Source: Bryobacterales bacterium (lineage in GTDB: Bacteria; Acidobacteriota; Terriglobia; Bryobacterales; Bryobacteraceae). From it: a stretch of DNA of 48,586 bases. The notes below the pieces were generated by a model. It had not been told where the DNA came from. It saw nothing but the letters and a program-made list of their open reading frames with translations, and searched no databases. The stretch covers positions 16,708 to 65,293 of the forward strand of contig PLDO01000523.1 in assembly GCA_003136215.1 (NCBI GenBank), given 5' to 3'. Shown here piece by piece: positions 26,980-40,020 of the stretch (position 1 is its first letter; every line of letters starts with the position of its first letter). The position numbers were made by a program, and so were the translations under genes.

Positions 26980-27945
26980 GTGGAGATCTCGGTGGTAGCT
27001 CCCGTATATAAGTGTGGCGATTGCGTTGCCGAACTCCACCGCCAGTTGGTATCCGCACTGCAACCCCTGGTGGCCTCCTTCGAGATCGTTCTGGTCAACG
27101 ACGGGTGTCCGGACAATTCCTGGGAGGCGGTCCGCGGGGTGGCCGCGCTCGACCGCCGGGTCAAAGCCATCAACCTCTCCCGCAATTTCGGCCAGTGTTA
27201 TGCGATTGCCGCCGGCGTCCATCACAGCTCCGGCAATTGGGTGGTGGTGATGGACTGCGACCTGCAGGACCGCCCCGACGAGATCCCCAACCTTTACCGC
27301 AAAGCCCTGGAGGGCTACGACATCGTCTACGCGCTGCGCCACAACCGGCAGGACACGTGGGGAAAGCGCGCCCTTTCGCGCGGCTTCGGGTCGCTTTACA
27401 ATCTTCTGAGCGACATAAAGATCCTTCCGAACGCCTGCAATTTCTCCATTGCCTCGCGGCAGGTGATCGAAGGCTACTGCCGTCTTAAGGAACTCAACCG
27501 CTCCTATCACCTGCTGCTGCGCTGGCTCGGTTTCCGTTACACGTATCTTCAGGTCGAGCACGCGGACCGTTTTGCCGGCGGCAGCGCCTACAACATCCGG
27601 CGGGGGATTCTGCTGGCCATCGAGTCGGTCACCTCGCAATCCAACAAACCGCTGATTCTGTCCATCCGCGCCGGCTTCCTGATGTCCGGCTCCGCCCTGC
27701 TGGTCGGTCTGTACTTCATCCTCCGTTACCTGGCGCACGGCATCGGTGTAACCGGGTGGACCAGCATGATTGTGGCCATCTTCTTCATCGGCGGGCTGAT
27801 TCTGGCCAACCTGGGGGTGGTGGGCTTATACCTGGGCAAAGTTTTCAATGAGGTGAAGGAACGGCCGCTGTACCTCGTCAAGGAAACGCTGAACTTCGAG
27901 ACTGCCGGGGCGGACGAAACTGTAAGCACTCCGACGAAGCCGTGA
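26980..27945 (+). CDS. GT2 polyprenyl-phosphate glycosyltransferase (ArnC/GtrB type)
   Basis: The track ORF (TTG at 26752) is trimmed to the GTG at 26980, preceded by AAAAGGACCGAGG. The product starts VEISVVAPVYKCGDC. Motifs are VLVNDGCPDNS, INLSRNFGQ and VVVMDCDLQDRPDEIP, with two C-terminal TM helices as in ArnC/GtrB. Confidence 0.85.
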   Translation: MEISVVAPVYKCGDCVAELHRQLVSALQPLVASFEIVLVNDGCPDNSWEAVRGVAALDRRVKAINLSRNFGQCYAIAAGVHHSSGNWVVVMDCDLQDRPDEIPNLYRKALEGYDIVYALRHNRQDTWGKRALSRGFGSLYNLLSDIKILPNACNFSIASRQVIEGYCRLKELNRSYHLLLRWLGFRYTYLQVEHADRFAGGSAYNIRRGILLAIESVTSQSNKPLILSIRAGFLMSGSALLVGLYFILRYLAHGIGVTGWTSMIVAIFFIGGLILANLGVVGLYLGKVFNEVKERPLYLVKETLNFETAGADETVSTPTKP

Positions 27946-27958
27946 TCCGACGACCGCC

Positions 27959-29497
27959 ATGCAAATCAATATCCTCGAGTACCTGGAGAAGGGCGCTGTA
28001 AGGCAGCACCCCGACAGGATTGCCATCGTCGATGCGCCGCGCTCCTACACCTTCGCCGAACTGGAGCGTTACGCAAAGCGGTGTGCTACCCTGCTGATCC
28101 GCCGGGCCGACGTCACCTCCCGGCCGGTCGCGGTGTTTCTGCCGAAGTCGGCGAGTGTGGTCTTCGCTGACCTGGGCATCGTCTACAGCGGCAACATTTA
28201 CGCCAATCTCGATATCAAGTCCCCGGCGCAAAGAGTGAAGGGGATCATCGGCAACATCGCTCCCGTCCTGGTGGTCACTTCACGGGCCCTCGCCCCGCAA
28301 CTTGCCGCCATCGGCGTGCCGGACGCCGATCTCTTTTTCATCGAAGAGATCGAGGACGAAGCCGTGCAGCCGGATGGGCCGGCCCTGTGGCGGCGCCTTG
28401 AATCCGTCATCGACACCGATCCGCTCTGCATCATCCACACGTCGGGATCCACCGGACTCCCCAAGGGTGTGGCGCTCAGCCACCGCGGCACCATCGACTT
28501 CATGGACTGGTGTTTCGAAAGGCTGAAGCTCGACGGCAGCGAGCGCATCGGCAGCCTGTCGCCCTTCTATTTCGACATTTACACGCTGGAATTGAACCTC
28601 TGCATCGCCAAGGGGGCCACGCTGGTCATCATCCCCGACCAGCTTGGTATCTTCCCCGCCAAACTGGTGGAGTTCCTGGCGGAGCAGGCCATCAGCTTCG
28701 TGTTTTGGGTGCCATCCATCATGGTCACCATCTGCAACCAGGGACTGCTGGAGGCGTTCGACCTATCGGCCCTGAAGACCGTTTTCTTCGCCGGCGAAGT
28801 CTTTCCCATGAAGCACCTGAACCACTGGCGCCGGGCGCTTCCGGGGGCGATGTTCGTCAACTTATACGGGCCTATCGAGATCACGGTGGATTGCACCTAC
28901 TTCGTGCTGGACCGCGAATTCGCCGACGATGAGGGTCTGCCCATCGGCTTCCCGTGCCGCAACACCGGCATCCTGATCCTCAACGAGAACAACCGGCCCT
29001 GCGCAGTCGAGGAGCGCGGCGAGCTCTGCGTGCGGGGCACTTCGCTCGCCATGGGGTATTGGAACGATCCCGAAAAGACCACGAAAGCCTTCGTGCAGAA
29101 CCCGCTGAACACGAGCTGCCCGGAGCTGATTTACCGCACCGGAGACCAGGTCTACCGCAACGCCCGCGGCGAAATCATGTTCGTCGGACGCCTGGACTTC
29201 CAGATCAAGCACATGGGCTACCGCATCGAACTGCCGGAGATCGAGTACCAGGTGCTGGCCATCGAGCAGATCGCCAACGCGTGCGTCCTATATAACAACG
29301 GTAAGAAAGAAATCACGCTCTTTTACGAGACCCGGGGCGAAGATCTATCGCCGGCTGCCATCCGCCGGACGCTCTCGCAGATCTTCCCCAAGTACATGCT
29401 GCCCACGGCGTTTCACCAGATGCAGGAACTGCCGCGCAATCCCAACGGGAAGATCGACCGCAACGGGTTGAGCGTCAAACTGGAGCAGATGGCGTGA
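27959..29497 (+). CDS. Stand-alone adenylation enzyme (DltA-like amino acid/carboxylate--carrier protein ligase)
   Basis: A-domain core motifs: IIHTSGSTGLPKGV, FAGEVF, LYGPIEITV, YRTGDQV, GRLDFQIKHMGYRIELPEIE, NPNGKIDRN. Confidence 0.92.
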   Translation: MQINILEYLEKGAVRQHPDRIAIVDAPRSYTFAELERYAKRCATLLIRRADVTSRPVAVFLPKSASVVFADLGIVYSGNIYANLDIKSPAQRVKGIIGNIAPVLVVTSRALAPQLAAIGVPDADLFFIEEIEDEAVQPDGPALWRRLESVIDTDPLCIIHTSGSTGLPKGVALSHRGTIDFMDWCFERLKLDGSERIGSLSPFYFDIYTLELNLCIAKGATLVIIPDQLGIFPAKLVEFLAEQAISFVFWVPSIMVTICNQGLLEAFDLSALKTVFFAGEVFPMKHLNHWRRALPGAMFVNLYGPIEITVDCTYFVLDREFADDEGLPIGFPCRNTGILILNENNRPCAVEERGELCVRGTSLAMGYWNDPEKTTKAFVQNPLNTSCPELIYRTGDQVYRNARGEIMFVGRLDFQIKHMGYRIELPEIEYQVLAIEQIANACVLYNNGKKEITLFYETRGEDLSPAAIRRTLSQIFPKYMLPTAFHQMQELPRNPNGKIDRNGLSVKLEQMA

Positions 29498-31146
29498 TCC
29501 GGGCTGAAAGTACTCCCCGGTCAGTAATCGTCGGGCAGGGTCCCCTGGCGCTTCACTGCGCCAATGTCTTGTCGAAGGGCGGGCACGAACTGGTGGCGGT
29601 GTCTACGGTTGACGATCGTTTCCGGAAGTGGGCGCAACGGCAGGGTATACCGGTAGTCGACGACCTCTCGGCCATTCCTTCACTTTCCCACTCCACCCCA
29701 TTCGATTACCTTTTTAGCATCGTGAACTACCGGATTTTGCCCGCTTCCTTGCTGAAGGCGCCGCGACGCTTCGCCGTGAACTATCACGATGCATTGCTAC
29801 CGCGATATGCGGGTACCTACGCCACAACTTGGGCGATCATGAACGGAGAAAGCCGGCACGGAATCACGTGGCATATCATGACGGAGGAAGTGGATGCCGG
29901 CGACATCTTGAAGCAGGTCGCTTTTCCGATTGGGCCTGAAGATACCGCCGCCTCCCTGAACGTGAGGTGTCACTATGAAGCCATCGGGGCGTTTTCGAGG
30001 TTGGTCGATGAACTGAGCGCTGGAACTGAACGTCGGATACCGCAGGATCTGAGCGCGCGCACGTACTTCGAGCTTTCGGCCCGGCCCGAAGCGGGCTGCC
30101 TGATTTCATTCGACTCGGCTGCACGGAATGTGGATTGTTTTGTCAGGGCGCTCACCTTCGGATCGCATCCAAATCCCATCGGCAGTCCGAAGATCAGCGT
30201 TGGCGAACGCTACTTCGCGGTTGGAAAAGCCGAGATCACGCCCTGCGAATCGACCGCAGCGCCCGGCGTCGTAACAGGTATAGATGATGATGCTCTACTT
30301 GTTGCCACCATAACCCAGAACGTCAGACTGAGCGGCGTTACTTCACTTCGTGGTGGCGAGATCACCACCGCAGTGTTGCGCGAACGCCATGAACTAGCAA
30401 TCGGCACGCATCTGAACAGCATCGATACGGTCTCCCGGGGTCGCATCACGACTCTCCATCAGCGCGCTTGCCGGCATGAAGGGTATTGGGCCGGGCGGCT
30501 TGCAGGAATTCAGCCGGCTGCCTTCGAAATCGAGGGCTGCACGTACACAAGGCCGCGCGGGCACTGGCGGACGCTGGAAGTCCATCTCAATGAAGCGTGG
30601 GCGGCAACGCTGGACTCGTGTTTCGGCGGGGTTTCCTGGGCTGAAGCGTTGCTGGCTCTAAGCGTGGTTTTTCTTTCGCAGGAGGCCAGCTTGGGCCGGG
30701 ACTTTGGGTTCGTCGACTCCGAACTCGCGGACGAATTGACGGGTTTGGAGGAACTGTTTGCTGTTTGCGTACCCGTGCACGTGGACAGTGCGTGCCCGGC
30801 GACGACAGCACGTCAGATGACCGAGTGCGTCCTGAAAGACCTCAAGAAACTGACGAAGCGCCAAACTTACCTGAGAGATATCGTCATTCGTTATCCAGGC
30901 ATGAATCTGACTGACTTGAACGGAGACCCCGGGAGTGATTCGCTGACCCTGTATCCCATCGTTTTCTGTCTAAACCATGGCGACCTAAACGATCGGTTGT
31001 TCGGGACTCAGATGACGGTTAGCATCGGTCTAAACCGGAAGTTATGCCAGTGGCACTACGATGGTGCGGCGATTCCGGAGACCTCCGTTGCGGCCCTCAT
31101 GGCGCGTTTTGTCCGATTCGCCGTACGCGCTCTTTCTGAACCATAG
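29494..31146 (+). CDS. Formyltransferase-fold domain fused to a C-terminal region resembling the second half of an NRPS condensation domain
   Basis: GTGA overlap with the upstream gene. The N-terminal part has VNYHDALLPRYAG (the N-x-H-x-x-LLP motif) and EEVDAGDIL (catalytic Asp region), as in Fmt/ArnA/sugar N-formyltransferases. The C-terminal ~250 aa (YWAGRLAGIQP..., AEALLALSVVFLSQE, DFGFVDS...LFAVCVPVHVD) resemble the C4-C5 region of condensation domains, but I cannot see an HHxxxDG motif. Confidence 0.8.
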   Translation: MIRAESTPRSVIVGQGPLALHCANVLSKGGHELVAVSTVDDRFRKWAQRQGIPVVDDLSAIPSLSHSTPFDYLFSIVNYRILPASLLKAPRRFAVNYHDALLPRYAGTYATTWAIMNGESRHGITWHIMTEEVDAGDILKQVAFPIGPEDTAASLNVRCHYEAIGAFSRLVDELSAGTERRIPQDLSARTYFELSARPEAGCLISFDSAARNVDCFVRALTFGSHPNPIGSPKISVGERYFAVGKAEITPCESTAAPGVVTGIDDDALLVATITQNVRLSGVTSLRGGEITTAVLRERHELAIGTHLNSIDTVSRGRITTLHQRACRHEGYWAGRLAGIQPAAFEIEGCTYTRPRGHWRTLEVHLNEAWAATLDSCFGGVSWAEALLALSVVFLSQEASLGRDFGFVDSELADELTGLEELFAVCVPVHVDSACPATTARQMTECVLKDLKKLTKRQTYLRDIVIRYPGMNLTDLNGDPGSDSLTLYPIVFCLNHGDLNDRLFGTQMTVSIGLNRKLCQWHYDGAAIPETSVAALMARFVRFAVRALSEP

Positions 31147-31191
31147 TGATTCGGAGTGTGTCCTTCCTGCAATGATCGTTGAATCCGTACT

Positions 31192-31446
31192 ATGAACTAC
31201 AATGGAGACACGGCTTCGATGAAAACTATCGTAGAAGTGCTTACCGCAATCCGCCCGGAATTCGATTTCACTACCTCACAGGATTTCGTCGGCGACGGAA
31301 TGCTGGACTCCTACGACATTGTGACGCTGGTGTCGGACCTGGACGCGGCTTACGGGATTTCCATCTCGGGATTGGATATCGTCCCGGAGAACTTTCAGAA
31401 CATCGCCTCCATCCAAAAGCTGCTGCAAAAATACGGACAAGCATGA
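31192..31446 (+). CDS. Carrier protein 1 (DltC/PCP-like)
   Basis: The GDGMLDSYDIV phosphopantetheine-serine motif sits in a 75-84 aa acidic helical protein. An alternative ATG at 31219 has GGAGA 10 nt upstream. Confidence 0.85.
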   Translation: MNYNGDTASMKTIVEVLTAIRPEFDFTTSQDFVGDGMLDSYDIVTLVSDLDAAYGISISGLDIVPENFQNIASIQKLLQKYGQA

Positions 31447-32510
31447 ACCTCGAATTCAGCCACCGCAAGATCAGCGGTCTGCTGGCTGTGGTCCCCGCCA
31501 ACGAACGCAGCTTCGTGGACGAGATGGCCAATTTCAATTCCCCGCCGGCTCGTTCCCTCAAGCTCATGAAGGTGATGGGCTACGATAAGCACCGCATCGT
31601 CGATGGCCCCGTCTGCGCCTCCGACCTGGCCTGTTTCGGCATGGAGCACCTTTTTGCCTCGGGCAAACTCGGCCGCGACGAGTGCGACGCCCTCGTCGTC
31701 GTTACGCAATCGCCGGACTATCTCATGCCACCGACCAGCTGCGTGATCCAGGGGCGGCTCGGCCTCAAACAGGATATGTTCTGCCTGGACATCAATCAGG
31801 GCTGCGCCGGCTTCCTCATCGGCCTGTTTCAGGCCTTCTCCCTGCTGGAACAGCCTGCGGTGCGCAAGGTGGCCCTGATCAACGTGGACGTGATGAGCCG
31901 GAAGACGTCGTCCAGGGACCGGAACAGCTATCCACTGATCGGCGATGCCGCATCCATCGCCATCGTGGAGCGCTCCATGGACGGAACTCCCATTCACGCC
32001 AGTCTGAAGATGGACGGAACGCGGCGCGAGGCACTCATGATTCCCGCCGGCGGCTTCCGCCTGCCCTGTTCGCCGGAAACCGCCGTCCTGGAGGACGATG
32101 GCGAGAACAACTTCCGCGCCAAGGACAACCTCCGCATGGACGGCACGGCAGTCTTCAACTTCGTGCAGGTGGAAGTGCCGCCGATGATTCGCGGCCTGCT
32201 CGAGACGGCGCAGGTCGAAATGGAGGCGGTGGATTACTTTCTGTTCCACCAGCCCAACCGCTTCATGCTCCAGAAGCTGGCGGACCAACTGAAAGTCCCC
32301 TACGAAAAGATGCCCAGCAATATCGTGGAGCACTACGGCAACTCCAGCGGGGTCACCATCCCGATGGCCATCGTCCACAACTTGCGGGAGCGGCTTCTGG
32401 CCGGATCCATCCACGCGTGCTTGGCCGGATTCGGCGTCGGCCTGACATGGTCGTCGATGCTGATGCGCCTGGGCCCGCTCGATTTCTGCGAGCTGATCGA
32501 CTACAAATAA
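31443..32510 (+). CDS. 3-oxoacyl-ACP synthase III (FabH-like KAS III)
   Basis: The track ORF is trimmed to the ATG at 31443 (ATGA overlap with the carrier protein stop). Catalytic triad context: NQGCAGFLIGL (Cys), FLFHQPN (His), YGNSSGVTIP (Asn). Confidence 0.9.
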   Translation: MNLEFSHRKISGLLAVVPANERSFVDEMANFNSPPARSLKLMKVMGYDKHRIVDGPVCASDLACFGMEHLFASGKLGRDECDALVVVTQSPDYLMPPTSCVIQGRLGLKQDMFCLDINQGCAGFLIGLFQAFSLLEQPAVRKVALINVDVMSRKTSSRDRNSYPLIGDAASIAIVERSMDGTPIHASLKMDGTRREALMIPAGGFRLPCSPETAVLEDDGENNFRAKDNLRMDGTAVFNFVQVEVPPMIRGLLETAQVEMEAVDYFLFHQPNRFMLQKLADQLKVPYEKMPSNIVEHYGNSSGVTIPMAIVHNLRERLLAGSIHACLAGFGVGLTWSSMLMRLGPLDFCELIDYK

Positions 32511-32519
32511 GGACTATCT

Positions 32520-32741
32520 ATGGAAGGCTTTTACGAGAAGATCGCAGAAATCCTGGAAGTGGATGCGGTCAATGGCTCCGATGTGTTGGCGGATTTTGAA
32601 GAGTGGGATTCCCTGTCCGTGCTTTCCGCAATCGCCATGATCGGTGCGGATTACGGCGTTAACCTGGCGGCCGCCGATCTCCGGGGCGTCGCCACCGCCC
32701 AGGCTCTGCGGGAGCTCGTCGCCGGCAGGCGCGGCAAGTAG
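32520..32741 (+). CDS. Carrier protein 2 (acyl carrier protein)
   Basis: AAGGA lies 7 nt upstream. 73 aa with an EEWDSLSVLS (DSL) motif. Confidence 0.85.
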   Translation: MEGFYEKIAEILEVDAVNGSDVLADFEEWDSLSVLSAIAMIGADYGVNLAAADLRGVATAQALRELVAGRRGK

Positions 32742-32745: not shown

Positions 32746-33501
32746 ATGGAACCCGCCGCCCCCTACACACTGGTTACGGGAGCCTCCTCCGGGCTCGGCC
32801 GTTGTGCGGCTGTCCGCCTTTCGGGAGAGCGCAACCTGATCCTGCACGGACGCAACTCTGAACGCCTGGAGCAAACGCTGGGGATGTGCCATCATCCCGA
32901 ACGTCACATCGTCTGGCCGTTCGATCTGAAGAACCCGGACGAACTCGCGGCTTCCCTCGCTCCGCTGCTCGCCGGGTCGGGCCGCTTCGTCGATGCCTTC
33001 GTGCATTGCGCCGGCATGGTGACGGTTCTCCCCATGCGCAGCGTGGACTACCGCACCGCGCAGGAGATCATGAACGTCAACTTTTTTTCCGCGGCGGAGA
33101 TCGTGCATTTGCTGCTGAAGAAAAAGGTCAACCACCAGCGGCTGACGAACATTCTGTTCATCTCCAGCATCTGGAGCCGGTTCGGCGCGCGGGGCCACAG
33201 CGCCTATTGCGCCAGCAAGGCGGCCCTGGATGGCCTGATGCGGGCACTGGCCGTGGAACTGGCGCCCGCTATACGGGTCAACTCCATCCTGCCCGGCGCC
33301 ATTCGAACGTCCATGGCCGCCCAGGGCTTCGATGATCCGTCCATCGTCGAAAAGCTCGAACGGGACTACCCGATGGGGACCGGGCAACCCGAGGATATCG
33401 CCGGCGCAATCGAGTTTGTCCTCTCCGGCAAGGCTCGCTGGCTGACCGGGCAGGAGATCGTGGTAGACGGCGGGCGAACCATCAATATGTCGCTGAAATA
33501 G
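32746..33501 (+). CDS. SDR-family oxidoreductase (FabG-like ketoacyl reductase)
   Basis: Trimmed to the ATG at 32746. Motifs are TLVTGASSGLG (TGxxxGxG), ISS and YCASKAAL (YxxxK), and PGAIRT. Confidence 0.9.
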   Translation: MEPAAPYTLVTGASSGLGRCAAVRLSGERNLILHGRNSERLEQTLGMCHHPERHIVWPFDLKNPDELAASLAPLLAGSGRFVDAFVHCAGMVTVLPMRSVDYRTAQEIMNVNFFSAAEIVHLLLKKKVNHQRLTNILFISSIWSRFGARGHSAYCASKAALDGLMRALAVELAPAIRVNSILPGAIRTSMAAQGFDDPSIVEKLERDYPMGTGQPEDIAGAIEFVLSGKARWLTGQEIVVDGGRTINMSLK

Positions 33502-34355: not shown

Positions 34356-35098
34356 AGATCGAGCGGATCTCAATCGATTCCCGGGTCCTGGGAGGAAACG
34401 TATTAGCCATTCAGGACTTTGACCCCGCCGCGGACTTCGCGGCATTTGAACGGGGCTACATCGCCGATTATGCGCCGGTGTACGTGTCCGCCAAAATCCC
34501 CCTGGAGCGGATCTCGCAGGTACACGCGCTCGAAAGTGCCGGTTTCCAACTGGCCGAGTGTCAGATCCGCTCGACGATCAAACTGCGCAAGTCCTACGAC
34601 GTCTCCACATTCCCTTACGATTTTGAACGGGTCGTCAGGGAAGAAGACCTCGGTGGGGTGCTCGATATCGCCGCCACGACGTTCGTGCACGACCGCTTCA
34701 CCGCAGATCGTGCCATCGACCCTGCCGCCTCCGGCGCGCGCTACCGGGGATATGTTCGACAGTCCTTCGTTTCGCCCGACGAAGCGGTCTACCGCCTGAT
34801 CGACCGTGAAGGCCGCACCCTTGCCTTCAAGACCCACCGGTATGTTAGCGGCACGGAGGTGCTTTTCCTTCTGGGCGGAGTACACGCGGACTACAAAAAC
34901 CTGGGCCTCGGCCTGATCAACGAGTACTTTGAGTTTAACGAACTCATCCGCAAAGGTATCCGGAAGGGGATTACACATATCTCGGCGGCCAACTATCCGG
35001 TCTTCAATCTTGAGATCGCCCAGTTGGGGTTTCGCGTACTTACCACGTTCGCAGTCATGCGAAAGACCTACAGTCGCGGCCTTGGGGGCAACGGTTGA
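34352..35098 (+). CDS. GNAT-like acyltransferase, WecD (dTDP-fucosamine acetyltransferase)-like
   Basis: ATGA overlap with the upstream gene. 248 aa; the two-domain layout and the HDRF...YRGYV / GLGLGLI region resemble WecD-type GNATs. Weak, from memory. Confidence 0.6.
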   Translation: MKIERISIDSRVLGGNVLAIQDFDPAADFAAFERGYIADYAPVYVSAKIPLERISQVHALESAGFQLAECQIRSTIKLRKSYDVSTFPYDFERVVREEDLGGVLDIAATTFVHDRFTADRAIDPAASGARYRGYVRQSFVSPDEAVYRLIDREGRTLAFKTHRYVSGTEVLFLLGGVHADYKNLGLGLINEYFEFNELIRKGIRKGITHISAANYPVFNLEIAQLGFRVLTTFAVMRKTYSRGLGGNG

Positions 35099-36924
35099 GG
35101 GAATCGCCGGCGCACCACACCGCTAAGTTGATCGCCTGCTCTCTATTCGTAGTCCTGTTCAGCGCGGTCACGGCGTACTATCGCGCTTTCGTCAGTCTGG
35201 CTACCTACGACGATGAAGGCACCATGATGTGGTCCGTGAAGCGCTTCTTCGAAGGGAGCCCGCTTTATAATCAGGTGGCCTCTATTTACGGCCCGGTGTA
35301 CTACTTCTATCAATGGTGCGCTCATGTCCTGACCGGTACGCCACTCTCGCATCATTCCGTTCGCCTGGTTTCGATTGCCTTCTGGGTGGCAGCCGCATTC
35401 ATCGTATTTCTGCTTGCGTATCGAGCTACCGGTTCGCTGCTGCTGGCGTCTTTCACGCACATCCTGGCGTTCCGTGCGATGGGATTTATCGGCGAAGAGC
35501 CGGCGCATCCTCAGGAGGCCGGCATTTTCCTGCTTGCGGCCCTGGGGCTTGCCTGTTTCGCCCGAAACCGCGCCTGGCGGGCAACCATGCTGGGGGCGCT
35601 GGCGGGCCTCGCGGTGTTAACCAAGGTCAATCTCGGAGTCTTCGTGATCGCCGCGGTCTCCACCGGCTTCGCATATGCCTTGCGTCCGAAATGGCTGCGC
35701 ACGGTTGCCTCCATCCTGGCGTCTTGCGGGATTCTGATGTTGCCGGTCCTCTTGATGTGGGGGCACCTGCCGGAGGGGTGGGCCGTGAAGTTCTGTGCCC
35801 TGGAGGTGATCTCGATCGCGTCCGCCATTCTGATTGTGTCCGGCGCCAGTGGGGATGTGCCCATCGGCTTGCGGGAACTCCTTGCCGCCGGTGCGGGCTT
35901 CGCGAGCGCCATTGCCGCTCTTTGCTGGTTTGCACTCGCGCATGGCAGCACCATCTCGGCAATGATCGACTGGACGATTATCAAGCCCCGGGCGAGCTTC
36001 GGCCAGAGTTGGTACCTGGAGCCCCACATCCGGCTTCTGGCGCCCCTATGGGCTCTGACGGCGCTGGTTCTGGCTTACTGTGCGCGGACGGGCCGCATCC
36101 CCGCGGCTTTTCTGGCCTTCGTCAAGGTGGGCTTCGCCGCTCTCGCGGTGGCGCTCTGCCTCACGGATCGCTATGAAGCGCTGATCAACTTCGGTCTTCC
36201 GCTTTTGTGGCTGATCGCCGTGCCTTCCGGCCATGCCGGCTCAGCCACGGAGGACCGCTCCGGCCGGGCCCTGCTGCTGTTAATGGCCGTCACACAGGTG
36301 CTGTACGCTTACCCGGTTGCGGGCGCCCAACTGCAATTTGCGGCGGTCCTGATGATCGCCGTAACCGCGATCTGCCTTTCGGATGGCCTGGCGTGGATTC
36401 GCAATTCCTGGTCCGGAGACAGGCCGTTCGTCCCGCGGACCGGGTGGGTGGCGTGGGGCGCCTGCCTGTTGCTCGGCGCGGCATACCTCGGTTTCGCGTG
36501 GCAGGCGGAAAGCACTTACGCGGGCTTCCAACCACTCGGATTTTCGGGAACCCGATCCATGCGCATTGAACCCGAGAGGGCGGCGCCTCTTCGCGCTCTC
36601 GTCGCTAAAGTGAACGCCAGCGGCTGCGGCACACTGATCACGGAGCCTGGCCTCTTCAGCTTCAACCTGTTCACCGGCAAGCCGGCCCCCACGGGCTTGA
36701 ACAACGGAGCGTGGATGGTATCTCTCAGCGCCGCCGAGCAGGAGAGCATCGTGCGCGAGGTAGCTCAGGATCCCGATGTATGCGTCATTCTGCGGCAGGA
36801 TATGGTGGATCAATGGACGCGCCGCGTGGACGTCTCTTCCCAACCTCTGGTACGCTACATCCGCGAGAATTTCCGCAGCGCACTCGAAATCCCGCACTAT
36901 TCATTCCTGGTCAGGAAGGACTGA
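35095..36924 (+). CDS. Polytopic membrane protein with a C-terminal soluble domain, GT-C (ArnT/PMT-like) glycosyltransferase candidate
   Basis: TTGA overlap with the upstream gene. About 12 hydrophobic segments span the first ~430 aa. An acidic motif (ATYDDEGTMMW) sits in the first loop, and the C-terminal ~170 aa are hydrophilic, which is the GT-C architecture. No homology search was done. Confidence 0.65.
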   Translation: MRESPAHHTAKLIACSLFVVLFSAVTAYYRAFVSLATYDDEGTMMWSVKRFFEGSPLYNQVASIYGPVYYFYQWCAHVLTGTPLSHHSVRLVSIAFWVAAAFIVFLLAYRATGSLLLASFTHILAFRAMGFIGEEPAHPQEAGIFLLAALGLACFARNRAWRATMLGALAGLAVLTKVNLGVFVIAAVSTGFAYALRPKWLRTVASILASCGILMLPVLLMWGHLPEGWAVKFCALEVISIASAILIVSGASGDVPIGLRELLAAGAGFASAIAALCWFALAHGSTISAMIDWTIIKPRASFGQSWYLEPHIRLLAPLWALTALVLAYCARTGRIPAAFLAFVKVGFAALAVALCLTDRYEALINFGLPLLWLIAVPSGHAGSATEDRSGRALLLLMAVTQVLYAYPVAGAQLQFAAVLMIAVTAICLSDGLAWIRNSWSGDRPFVPRTGWVAWGACLLLGAAYLGFAWQAESTYAGFQPLGFSGTRSMRIEPERAAPLRALVAKVNASGCGTLITEPGLFSFNLFTGKPAPTGLNNGAWMVSLSAAEQESIVREVAQDPDVCVILRQDMVDQWTRRVDVSSQPLVRYIRENFRSALEIPHYSFLVRKD

Positions 36925-36945: not shown

Positions 36946-38034
36946 CTAAAGGCCGCCCGTCACTAAGTGCCGAACACGAGTGCCCGCGCCCGCCGCCACC
37001 CTCGGACCCGCCGAGATGTATGTGCCGGGAGCGCTCTGGTTGCGGTACTCCGTGAGAATCCAGTCGGCGGATTCGGCCACCGCTGAGATACGCACTTCGT
37101 CGATGGCTCCAGGAAAGTGGGAAGTGCCGTTCGCGTACGCACCTATTCCCACCACGGGATTTATCGTTCCAAAGGTGGGGAGTCCCGTATGAGTTGAATC
37201 CAGTGCGCCATTCACGTAGAACGTCACGGATTTTGCCGTCAGATCGTAGACAAACGTGTACCAGTTCCATCCTCCGCCAGCGGTAGCGGCATAAATGCCT
37301 CCGTTCCAGTAAGTCCAAGCCCTCCCGCTGGTGTCGAAACTAATGCCCAAGTTTAACATTGCCGCGTCATCCCCGAAATAGATAGGGTGAGAGTCGGCCG
37401 GCGCGTTCGAAACTAACCACGCGGACACCGTAATTTGCCCCGTGATTGATATTCCGGTTGCAGGAGTGTTATAGTACCAGCCACCCGAAGAAGTGAAATC
37501 GGCGCAGCCCCCGACCTTGCCGGCAACTAAATTCGGCGCTCCACCTCCCGCCGTCAAGTTATTTACCCCGGTTGAGTCGGTCAGGCTGGTTGCACCAGCC
37601 ATATGCCAGATACCTTTGTAGTTGGCATTCCACACCGCCGATGCCGTGCTCTGAAAACTGCTAAACATACCGCCGTAGAACATTCCAATGGTGTCGTTGG
37701 TTGTGTGCGACAAGGTAGGCCGAAGTACGTGGGCGACGATTGCACCCGTCGTGGGGGAGTAAGACTCCATCTCCCACTTGAGCGCCGCCCCGGAGCCGGA
37801 GCAGTCGGCATAGAAGCCGATATCGTAACCGTTGGCGTTGTTCACCAGGCCTCCGTTGCCGGTGGTCCTCAAGTCCGCATCGGTCAGAATCACGGTCAAT
37901 GGGTAGTTCGTGAGGTCATTCGCGCCGGATACCATGGCGTGTTGCGTGGTCACCACTTTGCAGGAGCTATACCCGTTCGGGAAGGCCGCAATCGCCGGCA
38001 CTGCCAGTAGCGCCATCGCGAAGAGCGGCCTCAT
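36946..38034 (-). CDS. Secreted DUF2341 plus LamG/concanavalin-like domain protein
   Basis: Trimmed to the ATG at 38034 (MRPLFAMALLAVPAIAAF signal peptide). YPLTVILTD...GYDIGFY...LKWEMESY...VAHV...IGMFYG fits DUF2341. GAIDEVRISAVAESADWILTEYRNQ is typical of the LamG end. GC is visibly lower than in neighbours; two hand-counted 60-nt lines were 47% and 60%. Confidence 0.8.
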   Translation of the reverse strand: MRPLFAMALLAVPAIAAFPNGYSSCKVVTTQHAMVSGANDLTNYPLTVILTDADLRTTGNGGLVNNANGYDIGFYADCSGSGAALKWEMESYSPTTGAIVAHVLRPTLSHTTNDTIGMFYGGMFSSFQSTASAVWNANYKGIWHMAGATSLTDSTGVNNLTAGGGAPNLVAGKVGGCADFTSSGGWYYNTPATGISITGQITVSAWLVSNAPADSHPIYFGDDAAMLNLGISFDTSGRAWTYWNGGIYAATAGGGWNWYTFVYDLTAKSVTFYVNGALDSTHTGLPTFGTINPVVGIGAYANGTSHFPGAIDEVRISAVAESADWILTEYRNQSAPGTYISAGPRVAAGAGTRVRHLVTGGL

Positions 38035-38371
38035 CGCCCACGCTCCATCACGTGGCTTGGCCGCCGCCCGTGAGGCAACGGGCCGTTCTCCTTCGGCCCC
38101 GCCCGGGCGGCCGGAATCAAATCGATAATTTCCCGTGTGCGCGGAGCGATCTTCGTCTATCCGCGGACAGCGCCGATGGTCGCCCGAAGCCTCGCGAAAA
38201 CGCCTCAGTATGGTTCTATAGGACTTCATGATGGTTGACTCGTCTGACTGGCTGACCGGCTGCCAGTCCCTCTAAGCCGAGAATAGCTTGCCTACCCCGC
38301 GCCAAAATCCGGTGAGATCGGTCAAGTTATTGAGATCATTTGGCAAAATTAATTAAATGTTCGCGAAATGA

Positions 38372-38861
38372 CTGTTCCCAATACAGCCGCCCGCACGGTA
38401 TGTCACGAAGGGAAGTAGGACAGCGGGGGGTGCCCCGATCAACTCTTTCCACGGTGTCTGCTCCATGGAGGCGCTCGTGCATTGCGCGTACGATTTCATG
38501 CAACCCACGCCCGGAGCTTCGCTGGCCATAAACGTGGCCCGTGTATTTCTGCCGCGTAGAGGATGTCGCAACAGGGGTGGCCGGTCTCTGCCGCGGTCCG
38601 GCGCCCAATGGCGTGGTGACACTGGCATGCCCGGTCCCCGTCACCTTTAAAGCTTTCCTCCGCGGCATCGCAAAGAAAGACCGGATGTTCGTTATCCCGG
38701 TGCCCTACCAGCCCGTACTGTGGGGGCTGCGGATTGCGGAATCCCTCCATCTGCCCCTGAAGTTCCGCAGCGACAGCCTGATCGGACCCATGAACACCGA
38801 TCCCAGTCCGGATTTTTCCGCCTTTCGCGCTTGCGGTTTCCAGCCCCGGGCGTTCTTGTGA
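38372..38861 (+). pseudogene. Decayed remnant of an extended-SDR NAD-dependent epimerase/dehydratase
   Basis: Frame A (38372-38650) reads ...SMEALVHCAYDF....ASLAINV, an epimerase-like block. Frame B opens at 38532 and reads VYFCRVEDVATGV...VTFKAFLRGI...GFQPRAFL, an epimerase-like C-terminus. The GxxGxxG N-terminus and the YxxxK core are missing, and an AT-rich stretch lies at 38330-38370. Confidence 0.4.
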
Positions 38862-38865
38862 ACTC

Positions 38866-40020
38866 TCATCGGGCCGCCGCGCCACCGCACTCAAACTGCC
38901 GGACCGCGTCCACCACGTCCGCCTGATCCGCGTTGGAGAGGTCGTTATAGAACGGCAGACGTAAGATACAATCGCCGACCCGCTCGGTGACGGGAAACTG
39001 GCCGGGGCGTCCGCCGAATTCCACACCCATCGGGGAAAGATGGAGAGGGATATAGTGGAAGACGCTGAGGATTTCTCGCGATTTGAGGTGCTCGATCAGG
39101 CCCTGGCGGGCCGCCAGGGTGGGCATCACCAGGTAGAACATGTGATAAGCCTGCGCGCAATGCGGCGGCACGCAGGGCAGCCGCACGCCTTGTGCCTCGG
39201 CCCAGCCGGCGAGTTCCCGATTGTAGCATTCCCAGATCCGCTCTCGGGTAGCCGAAATCTGCTCGTACTTTTCCAGCTGCGCGCACAGAAACGCGGCCAG
39301 GATGTCCGACATCAGGTAGCTGGAACCAATATCGACCCACGTGTACTTGTCCACCTGGCCGCGATAAAACTTGCTTCGATTGGTCCCTTTCTCCCGCAGG
39401 ATCTCGGCGCGTTCCACCATGGCGGCGTCGTTGAGTACGATGGCGCCGCCTTCGCCGCAAATCACGTTCTTGGTTTCGTGAAAGCTTTGCGTCGCAATTG
39501 CGCCGAACGTCCCCAGGTAACGGCCTTTGTAGCGGGCGAAAAGACCGTGCGCGTTGTCCTCTACAACGGTGACGGCGTGCCGGCCGGCGATGTCCAGAAT
39601 TTCATCCATCTCGCATCCCACGCCCGCATAATGCACCGGAACGATGGCCTTCGTGCGAGGCGTGATCAACTCCTCGAGCCGCGATTCGTCCAGGTTCAGC
39701 GTGTCCGGGCGGATATCGATAAATACCGGCTTCGCTCCACGCAGCACGAACGCATTCACCGTCGAGACGAAGGTAAAGGACGGAAGGATCACCTCATCGC
39801 CGGGCTGGATGTCCAGGAGCAATGCCGCCATCTCCAGAGCGTGTGTGCAGGAAGTGGTGAGCAGGACTCGGGCAGCTCCCAGCGTCTCCTCCAGCATCGC
39901 GTGGCAGCGCCGTGTGAATGCGCCGTCGCCGGCCGCGTGGCCTTGCGTAATTGCGTCGGCTATGTAGCGCAGTTCGTTGCCCGTTAGCCCGGGCCGGTTG
40001 AATGGGATCCGATAAGGCAT
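38866..40020 (-). CDS. wecE: DegT/DnrJ/EryC1-family PLP aminotransferase, WecE-like (dTDP-4-keto-6-deoxyhexose 4-aminotransferase)
   Basis: The N-terminus IPFNRPGLTGNELRYIADAI, then TSCTHALEMAA, LPSFTFVSTVNAF and SFHETKN (PLP lysine), track E. coli WecE/RffA closely. Confidence 0.9.
   Translation of the reverse strand: MPYRIPFNRPGLTGNELRYIADAITQGHAAGDGAFTRRCHAMLEETLGAARVLLTTSCTHALEMAALLLDIQPGDEVILPSFTFVSTVNAFVLRGAKPVFIDIRPDTLNLDESRLEELITPRTKAIVPVHYAGVGCEMDEILDIAGRHAVTVVEDNAHGLFARYKGRYLGTFGAIATQSFHETKNVICGEGGAIVLNDAAMVERAEILREKGTNRSKFYRGQVDKYTWVDIGSSYLMSDILAAFLCAQLEKYEQISATRERIWECYNRELAGWAEAQGVRLPCVPPHCAQAYHMFYLVMPTLAARQGLIEHLKSREILSVFHYIPLHLSPMGVEFGGRPGQFPVTERVGDCILRLPFYNDLSNADQADVVDAVRQFECGGAAAR

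What the first reader, a model, noticed from the sequence alone, without database searches (positions are those of the whole stretch)
26980..40020. Arn-like lipid-linked amino-sugar pathway merged with carrier-protein acylation chemistry (10-gene operon plus a convergent aminotransferase)
Seen in the sequence: ten genes are packed with 4-nt overlaps or gaps of 45 nt or less.
1. ArnC/GtrB-type GT2 with two C-terminal TMs
2. DltA-like adenylating enzyme
3. Formyltransferase-fold protein
4. Carrier protein
5. KAS III
6. Second carrier protein
7. FabG-like SDR
8. AAC(3)-fold N-acyltransferase
9. WecD-like GNAT
10. A 609-aa GT-C-like membrane protein

A WecE-type 4-aminotransferase lies convergently at 38866-40020.

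Established knowledge: aminotransferase + formyltransferase + polyprenyl-P GT2 + GT-C is the logic of the ArnB/A/C/T lipid A aminoarabinose pathway. WecE and WecD make dTDP-Fuc4NAc.

Inference: the cluster would build a 4-amino-6-deoxyhexose that is N-acylated with a short 3-hydroxyacyl and/or aminoacyl group delivered from carrier proteins. The sugar would be loaded on polyprenyl phosphate and transferred at the periplasmic face to an unknown acceptor (lipid A, glycan or protein). I do not know a characterised system with this full combination.

No RmlA/RmlB, flippase, PPTase or deformylase is present in the window. The only nearby extended-SDR gene is a decayed remnant.
Basis: partly seen in the sequence, partly recalled or inferred. 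Interest (0 to 1): 0.75.

Follow-up and report, generated by a model that had tools for sequence, protein, structure and literature searches.

The report
Lipid-linked acylated amino-sugar decoration operon
A soil acidobacterium carries a conserved, still uncharacterised operon that most likely makes an amino sugar with an unusual carrier-protein-built acyl group and attaches it to the cell envelope through a lipid carrier; related strains swap parts of this operon as cassettes.

Summary
Ten co-directional genes (26980-36924) are packed with gaps of 45 nt or less or 4-nt overlaps, and a true WecE-type aminotransferase lies convergently. Family assignments hold: g1 is a GtrB/ArnC-type polyprenyl-phosphate glycosyltransferase, and g10 has a GT-C fold (AF2 pLDDT 91.6; all top PDB matches are GT-C enzymes). 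The genes are co-conserved: the order (WecE) GT2-A-cap-CP1-KASIII-CP2-SDR-NAT-WecD-like recurs in more than 20 metagenome and MAG contigs.

One part of the Arn analogy fails. The "formyltransferase" is not ArnA-like. It is a free-standing copy of the F-C* head of formylating NRPS initiation modules (F-C*-A-PCP; at least 1442 representatives). In operons that are 88-90% identical in DNA, exactly this gene is replaced by a GNAT.

Best reading: WecE and the WecD-like enzyme act on a dTDP-4-amino-4,6-dideoxyhexose. Its N-acyl group is built from a small amino acid (A, CP1), formyl-capped, and probably extended and reduced by KASIII/CP2/KR. The sugar is then loaded on polyprenyl phosphate and transferred by the GT-C enzyme to an unknown acceptor.

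Closely related contigs replace the whole g2-g9 cassette, as in serotype-type diversification. This is a new variant of known kinds; its chemistry and acceptor are unproven.

The parts
26980..27945 (+). g1: GtrB/ArnC-type polyprenyl-phosphate glycosyltransferase (GT2 domain followed by hydrophobic C-terminal segments)
   Evidence: Pfam GT2. NCBIfam best hits are PgfS (208 bits) and ArnC (159 bits), both below the equivalog cut-offs. Full-length PDB matches to GtrB sll0501 (5ekp, E 1.7e-62) and ArnC (9bhc/8vxh, E about 1e-43). Hydrophobic segments at residues 224-289.
27959..29497 (+). g2: free-standing amino-acid adenylation enzyme that loads CP1
   Evidence: TIGR01733 scores 328.6 bits against a cut-off of 317.4. 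Best PDB matches are LgrA A domains. Asp235 and Lys517 equivalents are kept. The hand-derived specificity code DILFFALVDK is conserved in 20 of 27 orthologs down to 54% identity.
29494..31146 (+). g3: F-C* protein. An N10-formyl-THF-type formyltransferase domain (about residues 1-310) is followed by the C-terminal lobe of a condensation domain (about 320-550, no HHxxxDG).
   Evidence: Pfam Formyl_trans_N/C. N96, H98 and D134 are invariant. AF2 pLDDT 90.7, with an FMT/ArnA-FT fold. In homologs the tail aligns to Condensation profile positions 191-456, and the tail profile hits only NRPS C domains in the PDB. At least 1442 representatives match at E<=1e-30; most of the best 150 listed are 1.1-6 kaa proteins matched at or near their N-terminus, and all five checked were F-C*-A, four of them with a PCP and two with a TE.
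31192..31446 (+). g4: carrier protein CP1 (Ser in LDSYD)
   Evidence: Weak PP-binding hit; translation. It lies directly upstream of KASIII in 19 of 20 loci.
31443..32510 (+). g5: KAS III-type condensing enzyme with a complete Cys-His-Asn triad
   Evidence: Pfam ACP_syn_III and ACP_syn_III_C. PDB 4efi E 4.7e-53, with aligned C/H/N motifs.
32520..32741 (+). g6: carrier protein CP2 (Ser in WDSLS)
   Evidence: PP-binding 21.1 bits against a cut-off of 20.8; translation.
32746..33501 (+). g7: FabG-like SDR ketoreductase
   Evidence: adh_short_C2, adh_short and KR hits. Present downstream of KASIII in 28 of 28 loci.
33513..34355 (+). g8: AAC(3)-family (Antibiotic_NAT) N-acyltransferase; substrate unknown
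   Evidence: PF02522 scores 88.9 bits. It always co-occurs with g9 in class I loci, 17 of 28.
34352..35098 (+). g9: WecD-like GNAT, the probable dTDP-4-amino-sugar N-acyltransferase
   Evidence: TIGR02382 E 5e-7 but only 29 bits against a cut-off of 195. Weak match to WecD 2fs5. A homolog forms the minimal set DegT-GT2-g9-like next to a PMT_2 gene in L083. It is also kept in the alternative cassettes of L006 and L008.
35095..36924 (+). g10: GT-C-fold glycosyltransferase with 14 hydrophobic segments in the hydropathy scan, a near-invariant DDEG motif after TM1 and a C-terminal periplasmic alpha/beta domain
   Evidence: AF2 pLDDT 91.6, pTM 0.92. The top six Foldseek PDB hits are all GT-C enzymes: DPY19, AglB, AftA and PglB. 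D39, D40, E41 and G42 are at least 90% conserved. The family is confined to Acidobacteriota MAGs (Bryobacteraceae, Solibacteraceae, Terriglobia) in the genome scan.
36946..38229 (-). Secreted LamG_3 protein (likely start near 38034). It is a recurrent neighbour of this GT-C family; its membership in the system is uncertain.
   Evidence: Laminin_G_3 hit. LamG homologs lie beside g10-type genes in L006/7, L008, L019 and L036.
38866..40020 (-). WecE-type dTDP-4-keto-6-deoxyhexose 4-aminotransferase
   Evidence: NF008687 scores 574.7 bits against a cut-off of 375, and TIGR02379 scores 527 against 435. Orthologs at 44-89% identity lie adjacent to the operon in L008, L023-25, L031, L038, L053-55, L058, L059, L064 and L067; L082 also carries a DegT-family aminotransferase at that position.

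Best explanation
This is a 'three-component-type' envelope glycosylation locus of an acidobacterium (probably Bryobacterales-like). It makes a lipid-linked, unusually N-acylated 4-amino-4,6-dideoxyhexose.

Sugar arm (inferred from family assignments): dTDP-4-keto-6-deoxyglucose comes from RmlA/RmlB encoded elsewhere. WecE transaminates it to a dTDP-4-amino-4,6-dideoxyhexose.

Acyl arm:
1. The free-standing A enzyme g2 loads a small alpha-amino acid (Gly, Ala or Ser-like) on CP1.
2. The F domain of g3 N-formylates the aminoacyl thioester. The catalytically dead C* lobe of g3 probably serves as the docking platform for g2 and CP1.
3. KAS III (g5) most likely uses this capped aminoacyl-S-CP1 as primer and malonyl-S-CP2 as extender.
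4. The SDR g7 reduces the 3-keto group, giving a 3-hydroxy-4-formamido-acyl-S-CP2.
5. The WecD-like GNAT g9, with the AAC(3)-like g8 as a second transferase of unknown target, moves the acyl group to the sugar amine.

Delivery: g1 transfers the acylated sugar to polyprenyl phosphate, an unidentified flippase exports it, and the GT-C enzyme g10 adds it to an unknown periplasmic acceptor (LPS, EPS or protein).

The locus is built from exchangeable modules: the cap gene, the whole acyl cassette and the GT-C gene. This fits diversification of a surface antigen.

Status of the steps: the family and fold of every protein, the gene order, co-conservation and the module swaps are shown. Every substrate, the KASIII primer, the roles of g8 and g9, the donor nucleotide and the acceptor are inferred.
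For: Folds and families:
- g1 matches GtrB and ArnC over their full length.
- g10 has a GT-C fold and a conserved acidic motif after TM1.
- WecE is above the equivalog cut-off.
- g3 is F plus the C-lobe of a C domain. The best 150 of its at least 1442 representatives at E<=1e-30 are mostly large NRPS-sized proteins matched at or near the N-terminus; five checked were F-C*-A, four with a PCP. Other F-C* genes lie beside an aaRS-like ligase plus an 82-aa ORF, or beside A-PCP-TE genes.
- g5 has the full condensing triad, and both CPs carry the serine.

Co-conservation:
- In 20 loci with enough upstream DNA, A is present in 19, CP1 in 19, a GNAT cap in 17 and a formyltransferase cap in 1.
- In 28 loci with enough downstream DNA, SDR is present in 28, CP2 in 25, and NAT plus WecD-like in 17. 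The last two occur alongside GT2 and WecE in the listed loci with enough flanking DNA.
- The minimal set DegT-GT2-WecD-like lies next to a PMT_2 gene in L083.
- RmlA is adjacent in L054/55 and L059.
- The same A-cap-CP1-KASIII-CP2-SDR cassette sits inside a Wzy-type capsule locus with Bac_transf, a PglD-like gene, DegT, RmlB and RmlC (L040). The cassette therefore serves amino-sugar acylation.

Module swaps:
- DNA of L022, L028 and L079 matches the window at 88-90% on both sides of g3, and only g3 is replaced by a GNAT.
- L053 keeps a formyltransferase cap together with KASIII, CP2, SDR, NAT and WecD-like at 43-64% identity.
- L006/L007 share 94-98% DNA identity up to the end of g1 and 82% from the g10 start, but carry a different cassette.

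A-domain code: DILFFALVDK, with the amino-group-binding Asp kept, is conserved across both cap types.
Against: - No flippase, RmlA/RmlB or PPTase is in the window.
- g10-type GT-C follows the cassette in only 4 loci. Elsewhere other large polytopic proteins follow, some with no detectable similarity to g10, so the GT-C pairing is loose.
- GtrB/ArnC-type enzymes are known (to my knowledge) with UDP-sugar donors. Use of a dTDP-6-deoxyhexose is assumed.
- g9 is only marginally WecD-like (29 bits; PDB E 0.27).
- The role of g8 is unexplained.
- The KASIII-primer step rests only on gene order and linkage. The characterised viosamine island makes plain 3-hydroxybutanoyl with KASIII/ACP/KR and needs no A enzyme (PMC3927599).
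- One F-C* homolog (L005) lies in a dTDP-sugar cluster with no A or CP within its 8 kb.
- The window is a metagenome contig, and no product structure exists for any relative.
Confidence: 0.6

Rival explanations
1. The overall pathway is the same, but the two carrier-protein arms are independent. KASIII/CP2/KR make (R)-3-hydroxybutanoyl from acetyl-CoA, as in the viosamine island. A/F-C*/CP1 make an N-formyl-aminoacyl group. The two transferases (g8, g9) install the two groups separately on the sugar, for example one on N-4 and one on a hydroxyl.
For: The viosamine island (vioA, vioS, vioR, acp, vioB) gives N-(3-hydroxybutanoyl)viosamine with the same enzyme types (PMC3927599). Two acyltransferases, g8 and g9, always travel together in class I loci, which fits two transfers. 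L008 carries a second KASIII plus two SDRs apart from the A-cap-CP1-KASIII block.
Against: A, CP1 and the g5-type KASIII are linked in 19-20 of 20 loci, with CP1 immediately 5' of KASIII. Such universal linkage is not needed for an acetyl-CoA-primed KASIII. Only one aminotransferase is present, so only one sugar amine is evident. In class II capsule loci the whole six-gene block moves as one unit with a single PglD-like transferase.
Confidence: 0.25
2. This is the strict Arn-like reading. g3 (or the GNAT in sister operons) N-formylates or N-acetylates the nucleotide-sugar amine, as the ArnA formyltransferase domain does. g1 then transfers the N-capped sugar to polyprenyl phosphate. The carrier-protein genes modify something else, for example by esterifying hydroxyls in a Dlt-like manner.
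For: The N-terminal 310 residues of g3 superpose on the ArnA-FT domain and on sugar N-formyltransferases. ArnC-type enzymes use an N-formylated donor. L005 has an F-C* gene among RmlB/C/D-like and GT4 genes with no A or CP in its 8 kb. L053 has a formyltransferase without the C* lobe at the cap position.
Against: The F-C* didomain heads F-C*-A-PCP NRPS modules; most of the best 150 matches are NRPS-sized proteins, and the tail is a C-lobe that in fused homologs runs directly into the A domain. g3 lies between A and CP1 with a 4-nt overlap. A WecD-like sugar N-acyltransferase is already present. No ArnD-type deformylase, ArnA-DH or ArnB equivalog is present. ArnA scores 95 bits against a cut-off of 777.
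Confidence: 0.1
3. The A/F-C*/CP/KASIII/KR genes form a small hybrid NRPS-FAS cluster for a diffusible metabolite, such as an N-formyl gamma-amino-beta-hydroxy acid or an acyl-amino acid. Their position next to GT2, GT-C and WecE would then be incidental.
For: F-C* homologs occur in NRPS/PKS clusters (L001, L002, L004). No condensation-competent domain or thioesterase is needed for a simple acid released by hydrolysis.
Against: GT2 directly precedes A in 11 of 20 loci, and WecE, NAT and WecD-like co-occur with it. The cassette also sits inside a Wzy-type capsule locus. Junctions of 13 nt or less, or 4-nt overlaps, tie GT2 to g2 and g9 to g10.
Confidence: 0.05

Closest known systems
Three-component periplasmic glycosylation systems (GtrA/GtrB/GtrC of Shigella and Salmonella; the pentofuranose systems of Kelly et al. 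2024, PMC11127046)
   Same: They have a GtrB-type polyprenyl-phosphate glycosyltransferase (g1 matches GtrB sll0501 over its full length) and a GT-C-fold transferase (g10). The GT-C is serotype-like and exchangeable.
   Different: No GtrA or SMR-type flippase gene is present. The sugar is predicted to be an acylated dTDP-derived 4-amino-6-deoxyhexose rather than glucose, galactose or a pentofuranose. An eight-gene acyl cassette lies between the two transferase genes. The acceptor is unknown.
Arn (PmrHFIJKLM) lipid A 4-aminoarabinose pathway
   Same: It uses a DegT-family 4-aminotransferase, a formyltransferase-fold protein, an ArnC-like GT2 (E about 1e-43 to ArnC structures) and a GT-C enzyme. 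An N-acylated amino sugar is carried on polyprenyl phosphate.
   Different: The aminotransferase here is a WecE equivalog, not ArnB (229 bits against a cut-off of 631). There is no UDP-GlcA decarboxylase, no ArnD and no ArnE/F. The formyltransferase here is an NRPS-type F-C* unit that a GNAT replaces in sister operons.
Viosamine island of Pseudomonas syringae flagellin glycosylation (vioA, vioS, vioR, acp, vioB, vioM, vioT; PMC3927599)
   Same: It combines a 4-aminotransferase acting on dTDP-4-keto-6-deoxyglucose with KAS III, ACP, a 3-oxoacyl-ACP reductase and an N-acyltransferase. Together these give an N-(3-hydroxyacyl) 4-amino-4,6-dideoxyhexose.
   Different: The viosamine island has no A enzyme, cap enzyme or second carrier protein. 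Its acyltransferase is named dTDP-viosamine acetyltransferase; VioB-type enzymes are left-handed beta-helix (LbH) proteins to my knowledge, not GNAT or AAC(3). The sugar is added by the modified-viosamine transferase VioT directly from the dTDP-sugar to flagellin glycans, not through polyprenyl phosphate and a GT-C enzyme.
Formylating NRPS initiation modules (LgrA F-A-PCP) and C* lobes (N-terminus of ACV synthetase, PMC7884236)
   Same: They have an F domain with the Asn-His-Asp catalytic set, an A domain and a carrier protein. An isolated C-lobe without HHxxxDG precedes the first A domain.
   Different: Here the three parts are separate proteins in the order A, F-C*, CP. They feed a KAS III and a sugar acyltransferase rather than a peptide assembly line. 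LgrA itself lacks the C* lobe.
ECA Fuc4NAc branch (WecE/WecD) and carrier-protein-dependent N-acylation of perosamine with tetronate in Vibrio cholerae O1 (RfbK-O; from my own knowledge, not retrieved here)
   Same: The ECA branch has WecE equivalent chemistry followed by a GNAT that acylates the 4-amino group. The V. cholerae system uses an ACP plus an AMP-ligase to build a non-acetyl N-acyl group; the alternative cassette in L006/L007 even has LuxC/LuxE-type genes.
   Different: g9 is far below the WecD cut-off. Those sugars enter Und-PP-linked repeat units through cytoplasmic glycosyltransferases.

Membership tests
Three-component periplasmic glycosylation system | GtrB/ArnC-type polyprenyl-phosphate glycosyltransferase (GT2 catalytic domain plus C-terminal TM hairpin) | tested here: met
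   Full-length matches to GtrB 5ekp (E 1.7e-62) and to ArnC structures. Hydrophobic segments lie in the C-terminal third.
Three-component periplasmic glycosylation system | GT-C-fold transferase encoded with it | tested here: met
   AF2 pLDDT 91.6. The top six Foldseek PDB hits are all GT-C enzymes, probability 1.00, E down to 1e-6, TM about 0.4. An acidic DDEG motif follows TM1.
Three-component periplasmic glycosylation system | Dedicated flippase (GtrA-like or SMR/ArnEF-like) in the locus | tested here: not met
   The window has no small multi-TM ORF. Pfam tables for L006, L008, L082 and L083 show no GtrA or SMR family. The flippase may be encoded elsewhere.
Three-component periplasmic glycosylation system | Polyprenyl-P-monosaccharide donor used at the periplasmic face | not testable with these tools
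   This needs biochemistry.
Arn lipid A aminoarabinose pathway | ArnB-type UDP-4-keto-pentose aminotransferase | tested here: not met
   NF008658 (ArnB) scores 228.9 bits against a cut-off of 631. The WecE model scores 574.7 against 375.
Arn lipid A aminoarabinose pathway | ArnA: formyltransferase fused to UDP-GlcA oxidative decarboxylase | tested here: not met
   PRK08125 scores 95 bits against a cut-off of 777. The tail is a condensation-domain C-lobe, not an SDR. No decarboxylase is in the window.
Arn lipid A aminoarabinose pathway | ArnC, ArnD and ArnT equivalogs | tested here: not met
   ArnC scores 158.6 bits against a cut-off of 529. No polysaccharide-deacetylase-type ArnD is present. 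g10 has a GT-C fold, but its PMT_2 hit is only 18 bits, and ArnT is not among its top structural hits.
WecE (dTDP-4-keto-6-deoxyhexose 4-aminotransferase) | Score above the NCBIfam equivalog cut-off | tested here: met
   NF008687 scores 574.7 against 375, and TIGR02379 scores 527.4 against 434.85. The C-4 stereochemistry (Fuc4N or Qui4N) is not resolved.
WecD (dTDP-Fuc4N acetyltransferase) | Score above the equivalog cut-off | tested here: not met
   TIGR02382 scores 29.4 against 195.1. PDB 2fs5 gives E 0.27. The protein is WecD-like in size and context only.
Viosamine-island-type N-(3-hydroxyacyl) amino-sugar module | KAS III with Cys-His-Asn, an ACP with the Ser motif, and an SDR ketoreductase next to a 4-aminotransferase | tested here: met
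   compared with PMC3927599.
Viosamine-island-type N-(3-hydroxyacyl) amino-sugar module | VioB-type acyltransferase (LbH fold, to my knowledge) and a VioT-type transferase that uses the dTDP-sugar directly | tested here: not met
   The operon has no hexapeptide-repeat protein and no VioT-like gene. It has GNAT, AAC(3), GT2 and GT-C proteins instead.
Formylating NRPS initiation module (F-(C*)-A-PCP) | F domain with the catalytic Asn, His and Asp | tested here: met
   N96, H98 and D134 are invariant in 20 sequences. The fold matches FMT and ArnA-FT.
Formylating NRPS initiation module (F-(C*)-A-PCP) | A domain specific for an alpha-amino acid, plus a carrier protein with the Ser motif | tested here: met
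   TIGR01733 is above its cut-off. Asp235 and Lys517 equivalents are present. CP1 has the DS motif.
Formylating NRPS initiation module (F-(C*)-A-PCP) | Domains fused in one polypeptide that continues into an assembly line | tested here: not met
   Here there are three separate genes and no C, TE or R domain downstream. The fused form is seen in P0286, P0289, P0291 and P0293.

The most novel reading that the evidence does not exclude
The six-gene block A-cap-CP1-KASIII-CP2-KR is a portable, minimal hybrid NRPS/type-II-FAS line. It turns a small amino acid into an N-capped gamma-amino-beta-hydroxy (statine-like) acyl group. The cap (formyl here, acetyl elsewhere) protects the amine during chain extension. 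Bacteria from several phyla would then display this acyl group on amino sugars of their envelope, either through a GtrB/GT-C lipid-linked route (this window) or through Wzy-type capsules. Cap, cassette and GT-C exchange would generate antigenic variety among near-identical strains. As far as I know, this class of sugar N-acyl substituent has not been described.
Probability: 0.3. Interest if true: 0.7.

Novelty: new variant of a known kind. Interest (0 to 1): 0.55.

Why it matters
Envelope glycans of Acidobacteriota, among the most abundant soil bacteria, are almost unknown. This locus and more than 20 relatives define a recurrent operon annotated entirely as hypothetical. It links three well-understood logics in one unit: lipid-linked periplasmic glycosylation, dTDP-amino-sugar synthesis, and carrier-protein acyl assembly.

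If the model holds, it would have several consequences. It would add a dTDP-derived acylated 6-deoxy-amino sugar to the donor range of GtrB-type enzymes. It would give the widespread F-C* NRPS head a role outside peptide synthesis. It would also offer a compact set of exchangeable parts (cap gene, acyl cassette, GT-C) for glycoengineering of N-acyl groups.

The nested module swaps in nearly identical backgrounds point to selection on a surface antigen, probably by phages or predators, in soil communities.

Tried and rejected
- A genome-contig scan with g3 as a single protein found no relative.
- Alignment A1 was too diverse to seed a scan. The narrower A3 worked.
- The Foldseek search with the full g3 model returned only formyltransferase hits, so it said nothing about the tail. 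The tail was resolved instead by Pfam on homologs and by a profile search of the PDB.
- Pfam on the g3 tail alone gave nothing.
- The promoter and terminator scan gave counts at or below shuffle expectation, so it is uninformative.
- The large membrane proteins that follow the cassette in L024 and L054 have no Pfam hit and no hhalign similarity to the g10 family. I cannot say whether they are GT-C enzymes.
- Literature searches for carrier-protein-dependent tetronate or 3-hydroxybutanoyl O-antigen genes found nothing usable. Only the viosamine paper was retrieved.
- Cluster look-up gave no organism names.
- The A-domain specificity code (DILFFALVDK) was derived by hand from the LgrA alignment. 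From memory, it resembles the Ser code (EntF, 6 of 10) and the Gly and Ala codes (5 of 10 each), so the substrate stays unresolved.
- I rejected the idea that the GNAT cap joins 3-hydroxybutanoyl to aminoacyl-CP1. A formyltransferase cap coexists with intact KASIII, CP2 and KR in the divergent L053.

Full report
**Observation.** Their junctions are +13, -4, +45, -4, +9, +4, +11, -4 and -4 nt.

Pfam and NCBIfam give these assignments:
- g1 (26980-27945): GT2.
- g2 (27959-29497): amino-acid adenylation domain (TIGR01733 328.6 bits, cut-off 317.4; DltA-like second).
- g3 (29494-31146): Formyl_trans_N/C in the first 310 of 550 residues.
- g4 (31192-31446) and g6 (32520-32741): small PP-binding proteins with the DS motif.
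- g5 (31443-32510): KAS III. Its Cys, His and Asn motifs align with those of PDB 4efi.
- g7 (32746-33501): FabG-like SDR.
- g8 (33513-34355): Antibiotic_NAT, the AAC(3) family.
- g9 (34352-35098): only a faint WecD signal (29 bits, cut-off 195).
- g10 (35095-36924): a weak PMT_2 hit.

The convergent gene 38866-40020(-) is a WecE equivalog (574.7 bits, cut-off 375). A secreted LamG_3 protein (36946-38229, -) lies between g10 and WecE.

Scans of the remaining ORFs and a hydropathy screen found no RmlA/RmlB, PPTase, ArnD-type enzyme or small multi-TM flippase in the 48.6 kb. The claimed decayed SDR remnant could not be verified.

**The two membrane enzymes.** g1 aligns over its full length with the solved GtrB (sll0501, E 1.7e-62) and with three ArnC structures (E about 1e-43). 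It has hydrophobic C-terminal segments. It is therefore a polyprenyl-phosphate glycosyltransferase of the GtrB/ArnC kind, but not an equivalog of either.

g10 was modelled with 36 homologs (pLDDT 91.6, pTM 0.92). Its six best PDB matches are all GT-C enzymes: DPY19, AglB, AftA and PglB, followed by Pmt1/2 and AftB. A DDEG motif after TM1 is at least 90% conserved. This fits the acidic first-loop motif of GT-C enzymes, which I recall from general knowledge. In the genome collection, relatives of g10 come only from Bryobacteraceae, Solibacteraceae and other Acidobacteriota MAGs. Together with the CarboxypepD_reg-OMP-barrel receptor at 40334-43360, this suggests an acidobacterial origin for the window (inference).

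**The 'formyltransferase' is an NRPS part.**
- N96, H98 and D134, the catalytic set of formyltransferases, are invariant in g3 and 19 homologs.
- The model of residues 1-310 superposes on FMT and ArnA-FT.
- The 230-residue tail is homologous to positions 191-456 of the Pfam Condensation model in P0006, P0008 and P0010.
- A profile of the tail hits only NRPS condensation domains in the PDB, at their residues of about 200-340 (bacitracin synthase E 2e-11, McyB 6e-9).
- In P0010 and P0033 the tail runs through the usual C-to-A linker into an A domain.

The tail is thus the C-terminal lobe of a condensation domain without HHxxxDG. The same kind of C* lobe is described at the N-terminus of ACV synthetase (PMC7884236).

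A search of 1.84 billion representatives gave 1442 proteins at E<=1e-30. Most of the best 150 listed are 1.1-6 kaa proteins matched at or near their N-terminus. Five that I checked are F-C*-A; four of them also carry a PCP and two a TE. So g2, g3 and g4 are the dissociated form of a common formylating initiation module, and g3 most likely formylates aminoacyl-S-CP1 rather than a nucleotide sugar. Other free F-C* genes sit beside an aaRS-like amino-acid ligase plus an 82-aa ORF, or beside A-PCP-TE genes. One homolog (L005) lies in a dTDP-sugar cluster with no A or CP in its 8 kb, which keeps the Arn-like reading alive at low probability.

**Co-conservation.** A metagenome scan with g5 returned 61 loci. 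I mapped them by tblastn with all window proteins.
- Of 20 loci with at least 4.3 kb upstream of KASIII: CP1 in 19, the g2-type A enzyme in 19, a 270-aa GNAT at the position of g3 in 17, a formyltransferase there in 1 (L053), and GT2 in 11.
- Of 28 loci with at least 2.7 kb downstream: SDR in 28, CP2 in 25, NAT and WecD-like together in 17.

Two classes emerge.
- **Class I:** (WecE) GT2-A-cap-CP1-KASIII-CP2-SDR-NAT-WecD-like. Examples are L022-25, L028, L031, L038, L053-55, L058, L059, L064 and L082. L017, a Bryobacteraceae MAG, is collinear with the window from the cap through CP1 to WecD-like, followed by a g10-type GT-C.
- **Class II:** A-cap-CP1-KASIII-CP2-SDR-SDR inside a Wzy-type capsule or EPS locus. 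L040 has EpsG, GT4, Bac_transf, a PglD-like gene, DegT, Wzi, RmlB and RmlC.

RmlA lies next to class I operons in L054/55 and L059. L083 shows a minimal set, DegT-GT2-WecD-like beside a PMT_2 gene. The cassette is therefore an accessory that supplies a special acyl group to a simpler core. The second refutation criterion, that the genes are not co-conserved, is also not met. The third criterion, a match to a known O-antigen or capsule locus of assigned structure, was not seen either, although I made no systematic comparison against characterised loci. The g10-type GT-C follows the cassette only in the window, L023, L017 and L008. Elsewhere other polytopic proteins follow; some are PMT_2- or GT87-like, and some have no detectable family.

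**Modular exchange.** At the DNA level, L022, L028 and L079 match the window at 88-90% over 26903-29506 and 31248-35120. The break is exactly g3, which they replace with the GNAT gene. L006/L007 match at 94-98% up to 27901 (the end of g1; the FG-GAP neighbour is 99% identical in protein) and at 82% from 35096 (the g10 start). Between these points they carry a different cassette: WecD-like, SDR, split transketolase, ACP, AMP-ligase, LuxE and LuxC. L008 has yet another arrangement. This is the pattern of a serotype-type variable locus.

**Mechanism.** Shown: folds, families, catalytic motifs, order, linkage and swaps. Inferred: all substrates.

Most likely, WecE makes a dTDP-4-amino-4,6-dideoxyhexose. 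g2 loads a small alpha-amino acid on CP1; the code DILFFALVDK keeps the Asp235 and Lys517 equivalents and is conserved in 20 of 27 orthologs. g3 formylates it. g5 condenses it with malonyl-CP2, and g7 reduces the keto group. g9 (and g8) acylate the sugar amine. g1 loads the product on polyprenyl phosphate, and g10 transfers it to an unknown acceptor.

Three observations favour the primer role of CP1:
- the near-universal A-cap-CP1-KASIII linkage, with CP1 immediately 5' of KASIII and CP2 immediately 3';
- the cap being interchangeable (formyl or GNAT) with everything else kept, including in the divergent L053;
- the six genes moving as one block into capsule loci.

An N-cap would also suppress lactamisation of a gamma-amino-beta-keto thioester (chemical reasoning). 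This is analogous to the aminoacyl protecting group in beta-amino-acid-primed macrolactam PKSs, which I recall from memory.

The main rival keeps the pathway but treats KASIII/CP2/KR as a viosamine-island-like 3-hydroxybutanoyl arm (PMC3927599) that is independent of the N-formyl-aminoacyl arm. I rate the general scheme at about 0.6-0.75 and the specific primer step at about 0.35.

**Comparison and novelty.** The locus works like a three-component glycosylation system (PMC11127046), but the flippase feature is not met. It is not an Arn pathway: the ArnA, ArnB, ArnC and ArnD tests are not met, and g10 shares only the GT-C fold with ArnT. Its sugar and acyl chemistry is closest to the viosamine island and to WecE/WecD. 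Its A/F-C*/CP unit is a split formylating NRPS starter.

Each logic is known. What has no characterised counterpart that I could find is their fusion into one conserved operon, the use of an NRPS F-C* head or a GNAT cap upstream of a KAS III, the AAC(3)-family partner, and the nested cassette exchange. I therefore classify it as a new variant of known kinds, with moderate interest (0.55).

**Limits.** All data are metagenomic. No product structure, acceptor, flippase or donor nucleotide is established. g8 has no assigned role.

Noticed in passing
L006/L007 2690-9964 (the site equivalent to window 27959-35098): Contigs sharing 94-98% DNA identity with the window over g1 (about 95% further upstream) carry a completely different cassette between the same GT2 and GT-C genes. 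It consists of a WecD-like gene (27% identity), an SDR, a split transketolase (N and pyr/C), a 78-aa ACP, an AMP-ligase, LuxE and LuxC. This suggests a different carrier-protein-built acyl group, hydroxy-acid or glycolyl-type.
   Followed up: partly
window 29506-31248, compared with L022, L028 and L079: This is a precise single-gene replacement. Operons 88-90% identical in DNA on both sides carry a 270-aa GNAT in place of the 550-aa F-C* gene. L053 has a 254-aa formyltransferase without the C* lobe at the same position, and L003 has both F-C* and the GNAT.
   Followed up: yes
L040 3262-19676 (also L035, L044, L046, L057, L072): The same A-cap-CP1-KASIII-CP2-SDR-SDR block occurs without GT2, NAT or WecD-like genes inside a Wzy-type capsule/EPS locus. 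That locus has EpsG, GT4, Bac_transf, a PglD-like LbH acyltransferase, an MBL-fold hydrolase, DegT, Wzi, RmlB and RmlC.
   Followed up: partly
window 36946-38229 (-); L006 11993-15424; L008 16263-19724; L019 51-1088; L036 1044-2336: A secreted LamG_3 protein recurs beside g10-type GT-C genes. In L006 and L008 it comes with a secreted protein of about 770 aa and no known family, which the window lacks. It could be an acceptor or an accessory protein; this is untested.
   Followed up: no
L019 3404-7257; L010 186-1976 and 10001-11755: The g10 GT-C family is expanded in Bryobacterales MAGs, with tandem or duplicate copies. Most copies have no adjacent GtrB-like GT2 or acyl cassette.
   Followed up: partly
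window 19048-23879 (+): A P-type ATPase (E1-E2_ATPase plus HAD domains) carries a C-terminal SPFH/Band_7 domain and is followed by two further SPFH genes (22000-22890, 22887-23879). This is an unusual fusion.
   Followed up: no
window 38230-38865: This 636-nt gap between the LamG and WecE genes contains only short ORFs. In L023, WecE follows the GT-C gene directly.
   Followed up: yes
L074 2150-5295 and L003 6391-9372: Some cassette variants insert 2-oxoacid-dehydrogenase-like genes near the A/cap/CP genes. L003 has a lipoyl E2 gene by Pfam, next to a 617-aa gene with no hit on record. The L074 E1/E2 assignment rests on my reading of the translations only. This hints at further acyl-group chemistry.
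   Followed up: no
window 4285-7970 and 16278-18896: Other envelope or polysaccharide genes lie in the window: a 536-aa membrane GT2 of synthase type, a MacB/FtsX-like permease (6633-7970, -), and a GH5 cellulase with a TIG domain. No link to the operon was seen.
   Followed up: no
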